From: Amoeboradix gromovi X-113
Lineage: Eukaryota > Fungi > Sanchytriomycota
Length of the DNA: 12,613 nt
Reading direction: 5' to 3'
Assembly (NCBI GenBank): GCA_018985225.1
Contig: JADGIF010000257.1
Coordinates: forward strand, 1-12,613
Shown: positions 1-12,613 of the stretch, in pieces
Position numbering within the stretch: position 1 is the first letter of the stretch
Layout: the number at the start of each line of letters is the position of its first letter
The notes under the pieces: generated by a model
Databases searched by the model: none
The model's input: the letters and a program-made list of their open reading frames with translations, nothing else
Told to the model about the DNA's origin: nothing
Program-made: the position numbers and the translations under genes

Positions 1-147
1 GAGGAATACAATTAATGAAAGCAAATTGGTATAATAGAAGAAGATCTTTTATTAGTGATAGCATTTCCTCCGTATGGAGCACCTCCTTTAAAAACGAGTT
101 AGTCTAGTTTTTATATTTGGTGTCCCATGTCTTAAGAAGGAGATAGC

Positions 148-990: not shown

Positions 991-1540
991 TGAAGCTGTG
1001 GAGAACAAGACAACTTTATAATTTGTAGTCGACTTTTGCTTTCTTCCGCCGATTTTTTACTACGCCGTATTTGACACACTAAACTTTTCCTTGGCTAGTA
1101 TCGCATGCACTGAGTGTATTTCATTGTCTCCAATTCCCTTGAGATTTAAAAGTCATTCCATTTTTAGGTGCTCACAAATGCACAACACGACATAAATGCT
1201 TTAAGGCCTTTATTTCTCGAAATCTTTAGATTGCCGTCAATGGATATCAATGATTATAAGTTCATATCTAGCGGTTACCATTAGATCAAAACCTGAAAGA
1301 TTTTTAGGGACTTCCGCAGCTTTATGTGCGAATTTCTGAATTGCTAAGATTATACTGTTGTTGCATTTTACTTGGAAAAACTCGAAGACTTGGATACTAA
1401 GAATATAAAATTTGGACGCAAAGACAGATTTATAGATGGAGTATCTTAATTTCTTGATGCAATTTTTCGATTGCTGAAGTCTATAACGTTTAATCCATCC
1501 AAAACTGTTTTCCCTTCTAGTATCGCCATGGCTCATACTA

Positions 1541-1645
1541 AAAGTCCTAGTTTTGGAAAAGATCAAGAGATGTTACAGGAAGACTGACAAAGCCTGTCAA
1601 CTAATTACACAAGCAACTGACGTAAACGTAACCCTGAGGTGGTAA
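1541..1645 (-). ncRNA. Putative omegaRNA scaffold of copy D
   Basis: Same position and similar length (about 105 nt) as the copy A scaffold. Starts ccacctcaggg, has a hairpin tgacag-gct-ttgtca (1599-1585) and ends aggacttt. Confidence 0.5.
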
Positions 1646-1760
1646 TAAATAAGAATGAATATATTTCAAGCTAGTGTTCTCTAATGGCATCTGGTCTCTA
1701 TCCAATTATAAATGACTTCTTCCAATGTTTTCAATATTTTCAGCGGCTAGAGGTCGTCAG
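1541..1760 (-). mobile_element. Fanzor2/IS607-TnpB remnant (copy D): nuclease C-terminus plus right end; may extend left to about 1870
   Basis: Minus strand gives IENIGRSH, then LDRDQMPLENTSLKYIHSYLLPPQG (1705-1631), which is homologous to NRDRMAARKIYIKYIHPYSIPPQC (copy B) and RNIYIKYMHTYSIPPQG (copy A). The terminal 24-mer gatcttttccaaaactaggacttt (1564-1541) matches the copy A end at 18/24. Confidence 0.78.
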
Positions 1761-1900: not shown

Positions 1901-2618
1901 ATGTCAAATAATGGATCCAAGGACGGAAAAGAATCTAGAGATATGTCACCATTTAAGTGGGAGTCCAAGAGAAGCGACTCACCCATTCCTTTTTCCAAGC
2001 TAAATTATGTCCCAAAGAACGTATCTATGGATTGCGAAGAACTAAGAGTGAAAAGAATAAGTGAAGCGGTGAGAACTATACTAGACTGTATTGGTGAGGA
2101 CCCAGAAAGAGAAGGGTTGTTGAAGACACCCGAAAGATATGCAAAAGCGTTAATGTATTTTACGAATGGATACACAGTCGACATGAAGGAAGTCATAAAC
2201 GGCGCTCTATTTCATGAGGATCATGATGAAATGGTCATTGTAAAGGATATTGATATATTTTCAATGTGTGAGCATCACATGGTACCATTCAGCGGGAAGG
2301 TTCACATTGGGTATATTCCGAATGAGCGGGTCTTAGGTTTATCAAAATTAGCCAGAATAGCTGAAGTCTATGCTCGTAGACTGCAAGTGCAGGAAAGGTT
2401 GACTAAACAGATTGCTGTGGCATTGATGAAGATTCTAGAGCCTCAAGGTATTTTGATTTAATATAGGCGTTGCCGTCGTAGTAGAATGCTGTCATTTTTG
2501 CATGATGATGAGAGGTGTACAGAAGACACAGGCAAAAACGATAACCTCATCAATGCATGGCGTTTTCCGTAACGATTCAAAGACGAGAGAAGAATTCTTT
2601 TCAATCATTAATAAATAA
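1901..2618 (+). CDS. GCH1: GTP cyclohydrolase I, join(1901..2447,2467..2618), 232 aa
   Basis: Motifs [34 protein letters not shown] and [23 protein letters not shown] are present. Removing the 19-nt intron restores the conserved C-terminus [52 protein letters not shown]. The first ATG is at 1901; the ORF-track start at 1835 is a TTG. Confidence 0.97.
2448..2466 (+). other. 19-nt spliceosomal intron in GCH1
   Basis: gtattttgatttaatatag: GT..AG, contains the in-frame TAA, and its removal restores the PQG-VAVV motif. Confidence 0.95.
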
Positions 2619-3660: not shown

Positions 3661-3761
3661 ACCCAACTCACCACAGTCAGTGCGTGTCATATCTAAATAC
3701 ATAATCAAGCGACATAGAATATACTTTTACGCCCGAAATAGTGTCAAGAGGTTATCGCCTA

Positions 3762-3991
3762 AAGAAAGGAAAAGATATCGGTGAGTGTGATGGAGAATTC
3801 ACTAGTCGAGCATGTACTTCATGCGGCACTCTGAAGAACAAACTGTCATCACAATTGGGTAGAGACTATGTGACAGCAAACTCGTAAAGTTCCGTCTTAG
3901 ATAGTGGAATGGAGAGCAAGCACCCATGCGAAGCGACAGCGCTGCTAGTTTCTTTCAGCAAATTAATGATTTTCTCGGAAACCAGGATTTT
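3762..3991 (+). mobile_element. Fanzor2/IS607-TnpB remnant (copy C); left boundary unresolved, possibly near 3673
   Basis: 3762-3887 reads KKGKDIGECDGEFTSRACTSCGTLKNKLSSQLGRDYVTANS*, matching the RuvC-II/zinc-finger motif 'cdEeyTS.tCt.CG' with the catalytic Glu position as Gly, the second CxxC deleted and a decayed DRD. The terminal 24-mer 3968-3991 matches 11408-11431 at 22/24. Confidence 0.85.
3888..3991 (+). ncRNA. Putative omegaRNA scaffold of copy C
   Basis: Colinear with the copy A scaffold: ttccgtcttag/tcccgcctcag, tagtggaatggagagcaagcac/tagtgaaagcgtgagcaatcac, tagtttct, and gattttctcggaaa(c/t)cagga(t/c)ttt. Confidence 0.6.
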
Positions 3992-4011
3992 TAATTAGAT
4001 GTTTAAAACAA

Positions 4012-6793
4012 ATGTTACTTGCTCTTTCAAGTGTTCAGAACTCAAATAAGGAAGAAGTATTCAGTTACTTGGAAAGGATACTGATAGAATGGATACCTCA
4101 TGAATTAATTAGTATTCCAACTGATGTGTCTAAAAGATTGTGCGAGATTATAGTTGGAAAATGGATTCAGTTCTTAGAAACAGAAATCCAAATGATGACA
4201 TTTAATCTGAATTTGAATGATTCAATAGATTATTTGATGTCTAGAGAATCAAAGATAACTCAGTACTATGACATTATTGAGTTTGAACTAATAAAACCGG
4301 AAATATTGCAAATTCAAGATTCATACGTTTGGAACCAACTGCAGCTAATTCAGAAGACCATGATAGAGTTTAAAATAAACTGCAGCAATATGATAAAAGC
4401 ACTTGAATGTTTTTTAAAATTTAGAGGTAGCATGCATGACTGCATTTTATACCCTGAAATTATGGGATTGCTGTACACTTGCAATTCGGAGCTAAATTTA
4501 AGCACTCCTCAGACGGAATTACTATTTCATATTCTGACATGGTCCATTCGACAAGAATGCTTAGAATTATACGTTAAGGGCATGAATTTAAGTAACTTTA
4601 CAACTCGCTCAGCATATCAAGTCCTACACTCTTTTCAGTGCTTTTTGGAGGTATTTCACAGATTTGATGAACTCGATGCTTTTCATAGCGCAGTTACCCG
4701 CAACAACTCAGCTTATTTGTTAAAAGAGGTTAACCAGAGTTTATTGTTCATGAATGACATTGTGTATGTATGCAAAGCAGCAGATTCGTGCTCTTTTGAC
4801 GAAATTCAAAGTAAAATCGACAGTTTTAGTGGATCATTACTGGAAAATAGTTTAGTGAACCTAAAAGCCCAATTCTTGATTTGTTTTGGTGAGCTTGGTA
4901 AGTTATCTAATCTTTTGTTTGTTTCGATTTATGAGAATTGGAGAGCAAATTTTGTAATATTTAAATTAAAATGGGTAGTAATAGAGCAGAACATTATAGG
5001 AGTCATCAATCAGTGCTTGGAAAGCACGGATTCAATAGAACGCAGAATATCGATACTTACCTTGTTCAGAAGTTATAGATTAAGCGAAAAATGTGTTTTG
5101 TTTCTAGATATTCAAAAAAAGTCTGCTTACGACCTTATATGCTTCAGATTGCGAAACTTGAGGAAATCTTTTGATCTTAGAAAATTAGAGCCAGAAATCC
5201 CAATAGGACAATTCAAATATTGCGGGTCTGCAAACTGGGCACTCAGATACATGGATCAGACTAAATACTTGGAGCTGCTAGTAAAGTCAATAAATTTACT
5301 TGATTTGCAAGAGATAGAAAGTTTTAAGCAGCATATTCGAGTCTATGTCAGTGATACATTTCAAATGTGGAAATCTACTTTGGCAGATGACATGGATTTA
5401 TACCTGAAATACCCTATATTAGATTTGGATAGCAAAAACTCAATGACTGCTAATCTGGATTTAAAGTTTCAAAATGCCATAAACGAGGGAATCGCGTGGA
5501 AAAAAATAGGATTCGAATTGCCAGACAGATTTCAATTTTACATTTCAAATTTCTCAGAGATCGTGCAAGCATATGATAAGGTAAACGATATATGCTTAAA
5601 ATACAACGGAATATTGGAGCAGGCAGGGACAGATTTTGAGTGCTTATTTACACCACTAAAGAAAGAGGTACTAAATTCATGCCAAAAAGGTTTATATGAT
5701 TTAACTTGGAATAACTTATTAGAAGTATTTACTTTTTGTAAAAACTCGTCATTTAGTTTAGTAAATTTGTCACAAATTTGCACAAAATCAAGGAAGTTCC
5801 TGACCAGCTTTGCAAAACGAGTAGAAACTATAAAGCTCTACGGCATCATGGAAAAGGTTACAGCGCCTGCAGATGGAGTCATTGTTGAAGAATTCATTCA
5901 GCTGTTAAACGATGAATTACAGCAGCTTATACAACAATTTAAAGCCATATTTAAAGAGACTGAGACGTTAAGAAGCAATTTACAAAAAACCCTAAGATAT
6001 TTTACGGAAGAGATTTGGTCAAATGTAAAGAAAGAATTAAACAAGGCAATATATAACACACTTTTACAGTTGGAGACCAATATTTGCAAAGAATTGATTT
6101 TACTATTGTCTAAAGATGCATCTGACCAAAATGAAGACAATTTACAGTTACTTCTTACTGTTAAATTAGACAGCAGTAATAAAATGACAATTTTACCTCC
6201 AGAGAATGTCATAATTGAGCAATTCGTTACTTTCAGCAAAGTGTGCCATGATGAACTCGGCAGGTTGATGGGTGAGTGCAAAAATATACAATCTAAGACA
6301 CCAGTACACCTGACGCATAATATCTCAGAATATTATGCAAGTTGCGAATTTTCATTGGACGTTTATAACCAATTTAAGGATATTTATGAACTAAATAAAG
6401 ATGCTTATGTTCGGCGTTTTAATAAACAAAACCCTTCAATAGATGCGTTTGATGCTGAAATCCAGCGTTACTATGAGTTCATGGTTCAGATTAATTCGAA
6501 AATTGAAACTATTCAAAGCGTCAATCTTTTCTCTTTAAACCACCAAGACTCAAAACAAAGCATAGTTTTACATTGTGTACAATGGCAAGTAAGTTCTTTA
6601 ATTAATTTAGGATAAGCTTAAAGAGCTGCTTCACACCAACACTGCAAAAAACGTGGACTCGCTCACACAATTAAATTATTCATTGGTGTCAAAAGAGATT
6701 GATGAGCAAATTCGCATTCTTGACAAGCACAATTATGACACAAAGTCTATATCTAACAAGTATAAGCAAGCTATGCTGAGACTAATTAAGTAG
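4012..6793 (+). CDS. Axonemal dynein heavy chain N-terminal tail only (DNAH2/inner-arm I1-beta-like, DHC_N1 region), join(4012..6588,6611..6793), 919 aa, no AAA motor
   Basis: Segments LERILIEW, KYCGSANWALR, WKKIGFELP, GLYDLTW and DIYELNKDAYVRRFNKQNPSIDAFDAEIQRY...KQSIVLHCVQWQ|DKLKELL...IDEQIRILDKH resemble the DNAH2 tail as I recall it (EIWEINKDSFI.RY..LNP...F.ADI.RY...HC.EWQNKF..LL...IHEQF.ILEKY). Stop TAG at 6791-6793; no Walker A motif seen. Confidence 0.82.
6589..6610 (+). other. 22-nt spliceosomal intron in the dynein-tail gene
   Basis: gtaagttctttaattaatttag: canonical GTAAGT donor, phase 0; removal opens a further 60 codons that continue the dynein similarity. Confidence 0.9.
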
Positions 6794-6817
6794 CGCAGTG
6801 TAATAAATAGTTTCTAT

Positions 6818-9800
6818 TTATTCATTTGCAATTATAGGGGAATTCGGAGTAGATGCCTCTATTTCAAGTATCTCTGACTTCTGTGCGCTGTTATCGTCAA
6901 TGTTCTCTGCAATCAGTTTTTCTTGGATACATTTGTCGTAAAACTTGGTTAGTTTTTCAGCATCGTTGCAAAAATCTCTCAGTTTCTTCAAACACTCGCT
7001 TGTATGATCAATCTCTAATGGCTTCCCGTATATGTCTTGACCATCGTACCTACATTATTAAAATATACATTGGATTCTCTATCCATTTCATCTCATTGTT
7101 TCCTGGTTTAAACAACAGAAAACAAGCACCCGTCCTGTGGACATATTGTGAGTATTCTGTAGCAGTTTTAATATGCGAGAATGTCAGTTTATAAGACTCT
7201 GGGAACAAGTTGTCGCTTTCAATGTCTAAAATATAATTCAATTCCAATGCCAATTGCCCAAGAAAAAATCCCACTGGCATATGTGATACGTAGAACTGTT
7301 CTAATTTAGCAGCGTCAGGTGGAGCCACAGCGAACCTAACAACAAAGGGCTTCCTAAATGGATTGTTTTCCCCCAGTAGAATTGTCTGCTCACTAGGCGT
7401 TTCCACTAGCTTAAAGCCTGTGGCAGAAGCACTTCTAGTCCAACTGTGGACCAGATTCTCAACATAAAAACTGCTGCTTAACAGCCAGTGTATTTGAAAA
7501 TGAAAGCATATTTTAGGGTTATGAATGGTATCAAAATGTAGCACACATAGCTGTCTGTTATCCGCATCGGTATGCTTGTTGGCATCGATCATCATTTTTT
7601 CCGAAATTCTAAATTTTTTAGTAGCGCTCCCCAGTAAGGATTTTGTTTTATCGCTAATCGAATCTATGCTATTTGACTTTGATCGAATAAACCACCCAAA
7701 TGATCTGTCTCTGTTTGTTTCATGAAATTGTGGCGACAGTCGATAAAAATAGTGACCATCGAGTAGTGTATGCTTGGCTTTTACGTGTTCAAATAGTCCC
7801 TTATTAAACATATCATTACCATATTCTACCGCTTCTTCCCTGGTTGTAATATCCTGAAAAGTTCGAATTAAGAAATCTACAAAGTCACTCCCGACAAAAA
7901 CTCGTTCATAAAACCTTAAGTGCCATCTTCGATCTTTAAAATTCAGACCATTAACCGGATCTGTCATTAGTCTTGCTACTTGCTCTATTGTTGCAGTTTT
8001 CTTTGTGCAATCGCTTGAAATATCCTCGTTATTCAGTATCACATCTTCTACTGGTTTTTGCAGCTCGTTTTTAACATGAGAGGCCGCCGAGAAAGTTGTC
8101 ATTGATATTCCTAGATGATTCACACTGTCTTGCAATTTCTTCATTCCTTTGACATTTGAGACTGGAACATCGTTAGTGTCCCTATATTGGACCTTGACAA
8201 AATTTTCCAAAAACCTTAGAAACCCTGCGATTCGTAACTCCTCTTCATCCAAGGACTCGTTTTTAGGATTGATTAACGACAAATTATTGGGAGGCGCTTC
8301 TGCTGGTATTAGTATATATCTAGTTCTATAGAAGGACAAGCTTTTTAGCGAGCTATCGGTAGACCAACCACTAATTAGCTGATCTAGATTATTCCAATTA
8401 TATTGGTCAAAACCAGGATAGTTGAATTCTGTTTGGCAGTCAAACGATTGGAATTGTGTAAATAACGAATACTTATACAAAATAGGCTGTCTATCATAGT
8501 TTAACTGCTTTATGTATCTGGTTACCTGTATGCTGTTGCTAGGATAGTCTATAGCTATCTTGTGGACTTCTCTACTTCTCGTTAACTTTAGCCTCTCAAC
8601 AGTTGTGTTTTTTGTAGGTATCACATATACCTGAGTAGGGCTACTGTATAAGGACGGATTTAATCGCGACTTGAAAAAAGACTTGTCATCCTTATAATAT
8701 TCTACTACAGGTCGCTCAATTTTTGTAGTATCTGGTGGAGAGTTAGAAATAGTAACAGCAGATGGAATGGGATTCAAATGAAGTTGAAACCCCTCAGACA
8801 GTCGAATATAGAGCATATTCTTTAACTGCTCCTCTAACGCTTCACCATCATTGTGCGTACTATCGATGCTGATTGACTTTTTTACCAAACTAACACCTTC
8901 ATTAGAACCACCATTAGAGATGCTATAGTTGTACTCTAAATAACTAGATTGTAGTTCAGGTTTAAGTGGAAATGATTTTACAGTTACTGGCATACAGGCT
9001 GGACAAATAATAGAAGACCATTTAACTTGAGCTACTTTATATTTATTAAACTCATCCTCTAGATAGAAGTGTTCCCACCTTTTGGATGAATTGGAATCGT
9101 TCTGCATCACCCGTTGTAATCCCATCATGGGTGAACTATTGGGCAGGGATGGAGTTAAAAACCCGGATTGTTTGTTATACGACTTACTTGGACTACCAAA
9201 TAGTCCGCTTGACTCCCTACTTTGAACATCTTTTTGAACACGCTTAGCCCATTTTATGTCGTTATATTTAATACGTTGATTCTTGTTGACTTGTATATCA
9301 ATAGGAATAGCAGTATTCTCCAGTCCATCTGATTTAAATGATTTGCTACCAGGGCTGCCGTCACTCAAGGATATGTTTGACTGATATGAGCTTGATAAAT
9401 CAAATTTTGGTGATTTTGTAGATTTCTCCCAAGGCAAGCTGAAGTTGTCAATAGTGATTGATTCCTGGAATACGGATTCGTCGTAAGCATTTGTTTCTGT
9501 AGACTTGAACTGAATATCCTGTATTTTGTAGGCTTTATGAAAGTGCTTCAACTTTAGATTTAAGTACGGCTCCCTAGGTATAACAATAGACGAGTTCTGA
9601 TTTAAATAGGTCTTGGACTTTGTAAATGTGCAAGCAGTGTAATACGAAATATCCAGCCACTCTGGTTGATAAAACAACCAACCTGAATCATGCATATCAT
9701 CAGAATCACTGTACAAGGGGTCATTTGAGGCAGTACTAGTTTTCTGCTGTTGATCATTAAAGTTAAATTGTCTCAATATCGGCAGGAATGCGAAGACTGG

Positions 9801-10943: not shown

Positions 10944-10969
10944 TTGAAGGAGAAAAAATAATAAAATTA

Positions 10970-11136
10970 ACAGCTTGACTATTTTCTTGAATAAATCATT
11001 TATCGCGAATTTGTATATATTTTTGTGTCATTTCACGACTTTTCCAGATTTTCCTAATAGCTTAAACACTCGATATTTTTCCTTTTCGCAAATGGTAAAT
11101 CAATTCTAAATAAATAATTAACAGGTACAGCATACA
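10970..11136 (+). repeat. Element left-end sequence, repeated at 12243-12398
   Basis: acagcttgactattttcttgaataaatcatttatcgcgaatttgtat versus acagttcgattgttttcttgaataaatcatttattgcgaattggtat; similarity continues through ctaatag(c/t)ttaaa(c/t)actcgatatt to taaca(g/t)gtacagcataca. Confidence 0.93.
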
Positions 11137-11328
11137 AATACATATGATCTGATATTCTTATCATCGTTAAATACTAGTCAAATGATAAGTAGCTTGTCGA
11201 GCAAGGTCGCAAGAAATATGGCTACAATGTCCCATTACGCATTCAAGGAACGCTTGAAGTTCAAGTGTAAGCAAAGAGGAAAGACGCTAGTTGAGGAACA
11301 TATACATCAAGTATATGCATACTTATTC

Positions 11329-11431
11329 AATCCCGCCTCAGGGTAGTGAAAGCGTGAGCAATCACTGCAACGGAGAAACTAGCATTAGTTTCTCTGTGGA
11401 AATTCTCGATTTTCTCGGAAATCAGGACTTT
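11329..11431 (+). ncRNA. Putative omegaRNA scaffold of copy A (best-preserved copy)
   Basis: Overlaps the TnpB C-terminal codons and the right end, as established for TnpB/Fanzor omegaRNAs. Three hairpins: gtagtga..tcactgc (11343-11368, inner GC-GTGA-GC), acggagaaacta-gcat-tagtttctctgt (11370-11397, 12 bp) and gatttt-ctcg-gaaatc (11408-11423). Confidence 0.72.
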
Positions 11432-11452
11432 GACGAGGAGTAACAACTAAAT

Positions 11453-12226
11453 TTACTTTTTCATTAAATCTTTAAAACTAATATTCATGAGGCTAGGTTT
11501 GGGCTTTGCGAGTTTTAGATTTTTAGATATTCCGCTGGACGTTTTTGCATGCAGAGAAGGTAGAGCTACGTTGTTATCCGCGCTTGGTACATCTTGAGAT
11601 TTGGAATTGAGCTTCTTTCGCGCAGGATTTGTTCTTTTCTCAGCTTTCTTGCTGGAGTCCTTAGCTAATGGTTCATCATCTCTGTTGTCAGACTTACCAT
11701 TTGACTCTTTAGTTGAAGTATTACGTGCTTTTGAATCCAGTCGACCGCTCAACTTACTTTCAACATGCTCTTCAGAGGAAGTTGCTTCGCATTGGCTCTT
11801 AATTAAAACATCTGTTCCAGATTTGTATTTTATGTCAGGAATATCATTCTTTTTTAGACTTAAATATAAACAGCTGCCGGAGAATGAATAGTAAATATTT
11901 TTAAATAAGACATGGAATTCATTGCTTAAATAGTCTTCGAATATATTACAAATGGAATTTCCTAAAGAATCGGAAGAGAAGACATGGTAGTCTTCTGGTT
12001 TCGGCATATTGCCAACAAGATGCAATTTGCTAGGCTTCGTTATGTCGTATTCAAATAACTCAAACGCACGGTCCCATATTTTGGCAATTGATTCATTTAC
12101 CTTTAAAACGTCACAATTTTTACCAGGCATTGCTATTGAAAAAGTAAACAAGCTAGACTTAGCCGAGTTTAGTCTTGAATTTACTTCAAATTTTGGATCC
12201 AATACAAAGTCCAAATGCAAAATCAT
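11453..12226 (-). CDS. Hypothetical protein (257 aa from the ATG at 12226): globular-looking N-terminal part and K/S-rich low-complexity C-terminus
   Basis: Uninterrupted ORF fitting between two elements. The ORF-track start at 12232 is a TTG. No family recognised, and the true start is uncertain. Confidence 0.7.
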   Translation of the reverse strand: MILHLDFVLDPKFEVNSRLNSAKSSLFTFSIAMPGKNCDVLKVNESIAKIWDRAFELFEYDITKPSKLHLVGNMPKPEDYHVFSSDSLGNSICNIFEDYLSNEFHVLFKNIYYSFSGSCLYLSLKKNDIPDIKYKSGTDVLIKSQCEATSSEEHVESKLSGRLDSKARNTSTKESNGKSDNRDDEPLAKDSSKKAEKRTNPARKKLNSKSQDVPSADNNVALPSLHAKTSSGISKNLKLAKPKPSLMNISFKDLMKK

Positions 12227-12242
12227 CCGCAAGGAGTTTCGG

Positions 12243-12613
12243 ACAGTTCGATTGTTTTCTTGAATAAATCATTTATTGCGAATTGGTATGCATTTTTGTA
12301 TAATTTCAAAACTTTTCTAATAGTTTAAATACTCGATATTCTTCCTTTCACAAATGATAAATCAAATCTAAAGAAACCACTAACATGTACAGCATACATT
12401 CGTCTCAGACTGAGGAACTGGTCCAAACATGGAACAATTAGATGTCTTTCAATGCCTGGAATGAGATGAACAATAAATAAACTTGTAAACCATTTATTTA
12501 ATAATCCTTATAATTGGTTTTACCGAATACGCGACAATAGAGATCGTATGGCAGCAAGGAAGATATATATCAAGTATATACATCCTTATTCAATCCCGCC
12601 ACAGTGTAGTGCA
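12243..12613 (+). mobile_element. Internally deleted IS607-type Fanzor2 element (copy B), running off the window edge
   Basis: Left end homologous to copy A; ATG at 12385; LRNWSKHGTIRCLSMPGMR* (12410-12469) resembles the MerR-type HTH of IS607 TnpA (TLR.W...G.I...r.pGg.R); TnpB scraps KLVNHLFNN (from 12479) and RuvC-III NRDRMAARKIYIKYIHPYSIPPQ (12536-12604); scaffold start cttattcaatcccgccacagtgtagtg matches copy A at 11322-11348. Confidence 0.88.

What the first reader, a model, noticed from the sequence alone, without database searches (positions are those of the whole stretch)
11329..11451. Well-folded omegaRNA scaffold with a definable 3' boundary and guide
Seen: three hairpins (11343-11368, 11370-11397, 11408-11423). 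Similarity among copies A, C and D stops right after AGGAYTTT, so the following flanks are candidate guides: gacgaggagtaacaactaaa (A), taattagatgtttaaaacaa (C) and tagtatgagccatggcgata (D). Copy D has a hairpin of different sequence (1599-1585) at about the position of the second hairpin in copy A, which hints at structure conserved over sequence. Inference: a compact (about 105 nt) scaffold for a possibly uncharacterised Fanzor2 clade.
Basis: partly seen in the sequence, partly recalled or inferred. Interest (0 to 1): 0.78.

Follow-up and report, generated by a model that had tools for sequence, protein, structure and literature searches.

The report
Fanzor2 guide-RNA end, boundary corrected

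Summary
The three hairpins are real in copy A (z -2.8 to -3.8). They lie at the 3' end of an internally deleted Fanzor2 element (10971-11440) that has many copies: 102 contigs of one run leave copy A at 11431 into diverse flanks, and 41 short EukProt ORFs belong to it (24 of 24 looked up are Amoeboradix gromovi). Those flanks share TAACGAG(GAG) first; copy A has a private variant of this tail. The end is 11440 (alternatively 11437), so 6-9 nt of the 'guides' are scaffold. The missed tail carries GAGG, complementary to CCUC in a missed 5' hairpin (11332-11343): the likely nexus pseudoknot known from TnpB/Fanzor2 omegaRNAs, although 4 bp alone is chance-level. Left flanks begin at CAG, predicting an AG core and a CAG TAM rather than IS607's GG. 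Copies C and D fold no better than shuffles, and covariation is not significant on three copies. No intact nuclease, transposase or RNA was found for this organism; the closest intact relative is P0304 (579 aa, about 65% identical over about 100 aa). Verdict: new member of a known kind.

The parts
10971..11440 (+). Copy A: whole non-autonomous, internally deleted Fanzor2-derived element (about 470 bp; end 11440 favoured, 11437 alternative)
   Evidence: Contigs from other loci start aligning at 10969-10971 (table 5); summed depth falls to the single-copy level after about 11446, and the loose-end consensus is TAACGAGGAG
10971..10973 (+). CAG at the left boundary: candidate TAM/target motif with AG core (inferred)
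   Evidence: Shared by A and B (12244-12246); joints from 40 contig counts begin at 10969-71 or 12243-44 (counts may overlap between A and B)
10974..11133 (+). Left-end region shared with copy B (about 80%) and with the N-terminal part of family ORF P0002
   Evidence: blastn; tblastn
11134..11295 (+). Fanzor2 RuvC-II-region remnant (54 aa), followed by an internal deletion that removes E_alt, the zinc finger and the RuvC-III aspartate
   Evidence: 89% to P0001, 58% to intact relative P0304
11294..11431 (+). C-terminal tail reading frame (RNIYIKY...NQDF) that overlaps the whole scaffold
   Evidence: 96% to P0031; 23 of 41 family ORFs stop right after this F
11332..11343 (+). Missed 5' 'nexus' hairpin CCC-GCCUCA-GGG; loop CCUC (11336-11339) is the predicted pseudoknot strand 1
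   Evidence: Pair probability 0.71 for two pairs; the PPQG/PPRG motif that encodes it recurs in intact relatives P0304 and P0086
11343..11368 (+). Hairpin H1 (C11368 is T in about 99% of summed depth; A11360>G in about 25%, in the internal loop)
11370..11397 (+). Hairpin H2, remodelled between subfamilies (11376C + 11378T + GC/TGC insertion after 11385; a third, D-like type)
   Evidence: GETSIS versus GASSIAS in the ORF tails
11395..11435 (+). H3: the 6-bp cap 11408-11423 sits on a longer irregular stem whose 3' arm includes AGGACTTT
   Evidence: local fold; MFE; cap probability 0.46-0.58
11432..11440 (+). Conserved terminal tail (family TAACGAGGAG; copy A GACGAGGAG); GAGG 11435-11438 is the predicted pseudoknot strand 2; terminal AG
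11441..11460 (+). Revised candidate guide of copy A (host flank)
   Evidence: depth 37 (single copy) from 11447
12244..12613 (+). Copy B, young, cut by the window end inside H1
3662..4001 (+). Copy C, decayed; keeps a zinc-finger remnant; tail ends at 3998 or 4001; left limit uncertain
   Evidence: Pfam PF07282 E 0.016; nhmmer E 2e-7; z +1.36
1532..1720 (-). Copy D, decayed; RuvC-III remnant plus scaffold; tail ends GAG at 1532
   Evidence: nhmmer E 5e-6; tblastn E 7e-11; z +1.51

Best explanation
The stretch is the right end of a many-copy, internally deleted transposon derived from a Fanzor2 gene, and it likely encodes that nuclease's omegaRNA scaffold of about 106-109 nt, ending at 11440 (or 11437) rather than at AGGAYTTT. 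Shown: four remnants in the window, Fanzor2-type protein motifs, many distinct flanks, the shared terminal tail, and the fold of copy A. Inferred mechanism: in the ancestral intact element, a transcript running through the end of the ORF was trimmed to an RNA made of nexus hairpin, H1, H2 and H3, with the loop CCUC pairing to the terminal GAGG (pseudoknot). The flank after the end served as guide, and the nuclease cut empty insertion sites next to a CAG TAM, favouring retention and copying of the element. Mobilisation was probably IS607-like, by recombination at an AG dinucleotide found at both ends (no terminal inverted repeats). The present copies cannot make the nuclease (no RuvC-I/DPG in 41 of 41 ORFs; zinc cysteines decaying). 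They were spread in trans and are now mostly decaying; young copies such as A would still give a loadable RNA only if an intact protein exists somewhere in the genome.
For: Best PDB match ApmFz2. E_alt six residues before CxxC in 33 of 33 ORFs; LP(S/L)F at the canonical E position in the 6 ORFs long enough; intact relatives with DPG + E_alt + RD at about 60-66% identity over about 100 aa. Boundary: 102 contigs, consensus TAACGAGGAG, depth step to single copy; 8 read-through ORF tails. Fold z -2.8 to -3.8, stronger on the + strand than the - strand (-3.05 versus -2.35). Architecture matches the published nexus SL + stems + 3' pseudoknot (bioRxiv 10.1101/2023.11.20.567912, passages; PMC10711439, passages; PMC11832414, passages). 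In related viral Fanzor2 loci, 3 of 4 families with flank-defined ends have a 5-6 bp complement ending 1-2 nt before the end, and L055/L080 show a compensatory change. Variants at 10% or more of depth fall in the H1 loop, at the H1 wobble end, or remodel H2 while keeping a stem.
Against: Covariation on A/C/D is not above controls; C and D do not fold better than shuffles. The last three bases are less conserved: of the 8 read-through ORFs only 3 read NEE, and C and D fit an end at +7 better. No full-length protein from this organism in two searches; TnpA not searched. The scaffold is also in-frame ORF tail, so coding constraint in the ancestor cannot be excluded. The organism is inferred from the repeat's proteins only, not from host genes.
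Confidence: 0.8

Rival explanations
1. Fossil only: the family is dead; no intact nuclease or transposase remains, no omegaRNA is made, and the fold survives only because copy A is young. This is compatible with the ancestry in the best explanation but denies present function.
For: 0 of 41 ORFs have DPG, maximum 165 aa; only 16 of 33 keep E_alt + four Cys + RD; zinc cysteines are changed in 5/32, 6/32, 3/31 and 1/30; 13 of 22 listed variants are C>T or G>A, many in stems; no full-length hit from the organism.
Against: High-copy repeats break short-read assemblies, so an intact master may be missing from the protein sets; 718 of 3334 laid contigs are 99% or more alike and 992 are 95-99% alike to the window (includes unique sequence), consistent with some recent copies.
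Confidence: 0.5
2. The hairpins and terminal tail are mainly DNA-level transposase-recognition or terminator signals of a MITE-like element, not an RNA scaffold.
For: Ends of non-autonomous elements are conserved for mobilisation; the pseudoknot match is chance-level alone.
Against: Position right after RuvC-III, strand asymmetry of the fold, H2 remodelling that keeps a stem, and the same layout in characterised IS607 TnpB/Fanzor2 RNAs. The two roles are not exclusive.
Confidence: 0.1
3. One reading: scaffold ends at AGGAYTTT (11431) and the guide starts at 11432.
For: Similarity among A, C and D is clearest up to there; alignments of other contigs clip at 11431.
Against: They clip there because copy A has a private change; the clipped parts share TAACGAGGAG and ORF tails agree.
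Confidence: 0.03

Closest known systems
ApmFz2 (Acanthamoeba polyphaga mimivirus Fanzor2, PDB 9B0L) and its omegaRNA
   Same: Best PDB match (E 1.5e-10 for the remnant profile; 3.8e-23 for P0304); E_alt active site; pseudoknot made with the last scaffold bases (-4 to 0) (PMC11832414, passages).
   Different: Scaffold there spans -205 to 0; here about 106-109 nt is predicted. No intact ORF or TnpA here; ends show AG rather than GG.
IS607 TnpB reRNAs (ISXfa1; CboIStron)
   Same: Nexus hairpin plus stem-loops plus 3' pseudoknot; same dinucleotide at both ends; scaffold reaches to or past the element end.
   Different: GG core with GGG/TGGG TAM there; AG core with CAG TAM predicted here. Eukaryotic host, non-autonomous, no group I intron found (Rfam: nothing relevant).
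SpuFz1 'ghost' loci of Spizellomyces punctatus
   Same: Fungal genome with many nuclease-less, omegaRNA-bearing copies (42 gene loci plus 134 ghosts; PMC10432273, passages).
   Different: Those are Fanzor1 with inverted repeats and no pseudoknot; here Fanzor2-type, no TIRs, copies keep C-terminal ORF pieces, and function is untested.
MmeFz2 and NlovFz2
   Same: Fanzor2 with 3-nt TAMs (TAG, CCG); Mme omegaRNA has stem-loops plus pseudoknot (PMC12923547, passages).
   Different: Intact, active and low-copy (7 copies for M. mercenaria); predicted TAM here is CAG.

Membership tests
Fanzor (Yoon et al. fingerprints) | RuvC2 glutamate six residues upstream of the zinc finger (E_alt) | tested here: met
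   E in 33 of 33 family ORFs; deleted in copy A itself; definition
Fanzor (Yoon et al. fingerprints) | DPG motif in RuvC1 | tested here: inconclusive
   The region is absent from 41 of 41 family ORFs; present in the closest intact relatives P0304, P0086 and P0088
Fanzor | Canonical RuvC-II glutamate replaced by proline or glycine | tested here: met
   LP(S/L)F in P0001-P0005 and P0032; copy A has decayed to LSS; definition
Fanzor2 (versus Fanzor1) | Closest to IS607 TnpB/Fanzor2 proteins by sequence and tree | tested here: met
   ApmFz2 best in PDB; family nests among DPG/E_alt viral and metagenomic proteins, apart from five outgroup TnpB-like rows, in a quick 135-column tree without Fanzor1 rows
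Fanzor2 | Eukaryotic or eukaryotic-virus host | tested here: met
   Neighbours IML1/DEPDC5, dynein heavy chain and intron-bearing GCH1; 24 of 24 looked-up family proteins are EukProt A. gromovi
Fanzor2/TnpB omegaRNA | Conserved structured region from the ORF 3' end to the element end, followed by a variable flank | tested here: met
Fanzor2/TnpB omegaRNA | Pseudoknot between the 5' nexus loop and the last scaffold bases | tested here: inconclusive
   CCUC/GAGG has the right geometry but is chance-level alone (62 of 100); 58% paired on A/C/D
Fanzor2/TnpB omegaRNA | Significant base-pair covariation | tested here: inconclusive
   Three copies only; 5 pairs changed on both sides, 48 of 500 shuffles as high; genome not held
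Fanzor2/TnpB omegaRNA | RNA is expressed, binds the nuclease and guides cleavage | not testable with these tools
   Needs RNA sequencing and cleavage assays
IS607-type element | No TIRs; same dinucleotide at both ends | tested here: inconclusive
   No inverted repeat joins A's two ends; AG at both ends in A; GG at both ends in viral control L062; no empty site available
IS607-type element | Serine-recombinase TnpA in the element or genome | not tested
   No genome held; copies in the window are too short to encode one

The most novel reading that the evidence does not exclude
A gene-dense, reduced fungal genome has been flooded with hundreds to a thousand or more Fanzor2 mini-elements that act as a living guide library for one intact nuclease in trans. 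The system uses an AG recombination core and CAG TAM instead of IS607's GG, and its left ends, which sit 18-27 nt before divergent host start codons in both young copies here, supply promoters that make the insertions tolerable.
Probability: 0.12. Interest if true: 0.75.

Novelty: new member of a known kind. Interest (0 to 1): 0.4.

Why it matters
It adds a Fanzor2 lineage and a candidate scaffold of about 108 nt from a fungal phylum absent from the three main surveys' searchable supplements. It predicts a CAG TAM and an AG core that can be tested directly with intact relatives (P0304, P0086), and it corrects a boundary error that would likely have made the proposed cleavage assay fail. The very high copy number offers natural variants for mapping which scaffold parts matter, and for asking whether nuclease-less copies serve as guides in trans, an open question since the SpuFz1 ghost loci. 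The kind of system itself is known.

Tried and rejected
No whole genome is held, so the genome-wide alignment and covariance test could not be run. Sequencing runs: one DNA holder, no RNA holder listed. Rfam: only a chance mir-558 hit at E 0.63. Metagenome scans: DNA pattern 0 hits; protein alignment 0 of 45 candidates confirmed. P0086 in genome contigs 0 of 35 and in viral contigs 0 of 3, so no DNA of close intact relatives was obtained. An nhmmer scan of copy A's scaffold against the tails of the viral loci with a recognisable RuvC-III motif found nothing at E 5 or better, and none had CC[CT]CAGG. Searches for a full-length protein of this organism found none (the word-based searches are weak evidence). 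No CAG-adjacent match to either guide of copy A in the window. Earlier scan findings: none. Rejected: end at AGGAYTTT; TIR-type (MITE) ends; D as independent structural support; selection on the roughly 124-aa ORFs (cysteine decay); 'TA' after the tail as a duplication (not kept in the read-through ORFs). The careful tree did not finish; the quick tree was used. In the pseudoknot survey, ends of L006, L037, L055 and L080 were chosen by motif and are therefore circular; L070's longest match was only 4 bp.

Full report
Setting. The window is eukaryotic: GTP cyclohydrolase I, dynein heavy chain N1 and IML1/DEPDC5. Four intergenic remnants share a Fanzor/TnpB C-terminus: A (+, 10971-11440), B (+, 12244 to the window end), C (+, about 3662-4001) and D (-, about 1720-1532). 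No genome is held. A 45-aa piece of copy A found 23 proteins among 29 candidates, all EukProt, 109-165 aa. With cluster members and the exhaustive HMMER search the family has 41 ORFs; the 24 that I looked up are all Amoeboradix gromovi. The host is therefore likely this sanchytrid fungus or a close relative (genome 10.5 Mbp; PMC8371127, passages). I did not confirm this with host genes.

The observation. The three hairpins are in copy A's fold, and the region folds better than shuffles (z -2.80; -3.78 and -3.05 for two trimmed versions, against -2.35 on the other strand). H1 and H2 are well defined; H3's cap has probability about 0.55 and sits on a longer irregular stem whose 3' arm includes AGGACTTT. 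Copies C and D fold no better than shuffles (z +1.36, +1.51). On the three-copy alignment 73% of cells pair and 5 pairs change on both sides, four of them in H2, but 48 of 500 shuffles and a 3-column slide do as well. The claim of structure conserved over sequence is therefore not shown by D, although a D-like H2 occurs in 13 other contigs, and a common second H2 type (11376C, 11378T, GC/TGC insertion) also keeps a stem.

The boundary. Laying the contigs of the one run that holds this DNA on 11300-11480 placed 793 contigs. Summed depth is about 49,000 at 11426-32, 624 at 11433-39, 142 at 11440-46 and 37 thereafter; 102 contigs leave at 11431, and their loose ends have the consensus TAACGAGGAG followed by A/T only (the same first 12 letters from 79 contigs). 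Copy A reads GACGAGGAG there: the same tail with one base lost and one changed, which is why alignments clip. Proteins agree: 23 of 41 ORFs stop right after ...QDF-type ends (TTT then a stop), and the 8 that read through give NEE three times, NEK, NEN, TRG, TRI and IRK. The tail is secure through AACGAG (11437). The next three bases are the plurality and present in A but less conserved, and C and D fit the shorter end better, so I put 11440 at about 60% and 11437 at about 35%. Depth is not a copy number (tool caveat); 102 contigs with loose flanks suggest on the order of a hundred copies at least, and several hundred or more is my inference from depth and from two young copies in 12.6 kb.

What the missed parts add. 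Upstream of H1 lies CCC-GCCUCA-GGG (11332-11343; two pairs at 0.71). Its loop CCUC is complementary to GAGG (11435-11438), two bases before the favoured end; the MFE already paired them. Published TnpB and Fanzor2 RNAs have this layout: a nexus hairpin pairing with the scaffold 3' end (bioRxiv 10.1101/2023.11.20.567912, passages; PMC10711439, passages; ApmFz2 positions -4 to 0, PMC11832414, passages). In viral Fanzor2-like loci fetched, 3 of 4 families with flank-defined ends have a 5-6 bp complement ending 1-2 nt before the end, the fourth only 4 bp; four more ends chosen by motif also fit but are circular. The pseudoknot is thus inferred from geometry and homology. The PPQG/PPRG motif that encodes the hairpin recurs in intact relatives whose later tails are less alike, which fits but could be protein constraint.

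Left end. Contigs from other loci begin aligning at 10969-10971 or 12243-12244, that is at or just before CAG in both A and B. Both possible right ends finish in AG and there is no terminal inverted repeat. IS607 elements recombine at a dinucleotide present at both ends, with a TAM that includes it, and viral control L062 has GG at both ends. By analogy I predict an AG core and a CAG TAM. No empty site or TnpA was available to test this.

The protein. E_alt is kept in 33 of 33 ORFs, proline replaces the canonical RuvC-II glutamate, and ApmFz2 is the best PDB match. None of the 41 has RuvC-I (DPG); only 16 of 33 keep E_alt, four cysteines and RD, so the short ORFs look like leftovers under no evident selection. 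No full-length protein from this organism was found. The closest intact relatives are P0304 (579 aa, 60-66% identity over about 100 aa) and P0086 (551 aa, 52-60%), both with DPG, E_alt and RD; their DNA could not be fetched (for P0086). A quick tree (92 rows, 135 columns, no Fanzor1 rows, made before these two were found) keeps the family as one group among DPG/E_alt proteins with weak deeper support.

Mechanism. Most likely (0.8) this is omegaRNA-scaffold DNA at the right end of a non-autonomous Fanzor2 element: RNA from the ORF end through the tail plus flank guided an intact nuclease to empty CAG sites, aiding retention, while a recombinase moved the element. Shown: ancestry, multi-copy state, boundary, fold. 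Inferred: pseudoknot, TAM, core, mobilisation in trans. Whether any RNA or nuclease is still made is open (fossil reading 0.5).

Novelty. Nuclease-less omegaRNA copies are known (134 SpuFz1 ghost loci; PMC10432273, passages), as are Fanzor2 in fungi (same call) and up to 122 Fanzor copies per genome (PMC10530073, passages); Fanzor2 IS607-like elements without TIRs are described in PMC3627910 (passages). Full-text searches for Amoeboradix + Fanzor and sanchytri + TnpB gave 0 papers, and the searchable supplements of the three surveys do not name the organism (one scanned file was not searched, and most subscription papers are outside the library). The scaffold is shorter than ApmFz2's but not extreme: one viral family here has only 63 nt between RuvC-III and its end. 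Verdict: new member of a known kind, interest 0.4; the useful results are the corrected end, the predicted AG/CAG specificity and the copy number.

Noticed in passing
window 1-127: End of a second very high-copy repeat (summed depth 60,540 over 1-421; 24 contigs leave at 128; often lies close to either end of the Fanzor2 element). It folds on the + strand (z -3.51), has no other match in the window, and reads TGGG at its boundary on the - strand, like an IS607 target motif. Identity unknown.
   Followed up: partly
window 10943/10971 and 12226/12244: Both young copies have their left end 27 and 17-18 nt upstream of the likely ATG of a divergent host gene (IML1; the ORF ending at 11453), leaving little room for a host promoter outside the element.
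   Followed up: partly
window 2448-2466: GCH1 has a 19-nt GT-AG intron; removing it restores the conserved C-terminus.
   Followed up: yes
window about 700-1085, - strand: Possible fifth, very decayed Fanzor2 remnant (tblastn E 0.002-0.003 with P0304; hmmsearch iE 0.008).
   Followed up: no
L056, L061, L062, L064, L066, L070 (about 60 nt after the RuvC-III NI codons): Viral Fanzor2 family with an extremely short right end: 63 nt from NI to the flank-defined end AGCGG, with loop CGCT complementary to AGCG. It may be one of the smallest natural scaffolds unless the RNA starts further inside the ORF.
   Followed up: partly
L055 and L080 right ends: Compensatory change in the candidate pseudoknot (AGATGA/TCATCT versus AGACGA/TCGTCT).
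   Followed up: partly
window 6615-6870: The dynein N1 ORF stops at 6615 and short frames follow up to the IML1 3' end; the gene appears far shorter than a full dynein heavy chain, or continues through tiny introns.
   Followed up: no
window 11453-12268, - strand: 271-codon open frame between copies A and B with no Pfam match at E 0.1.
   Followed up: no
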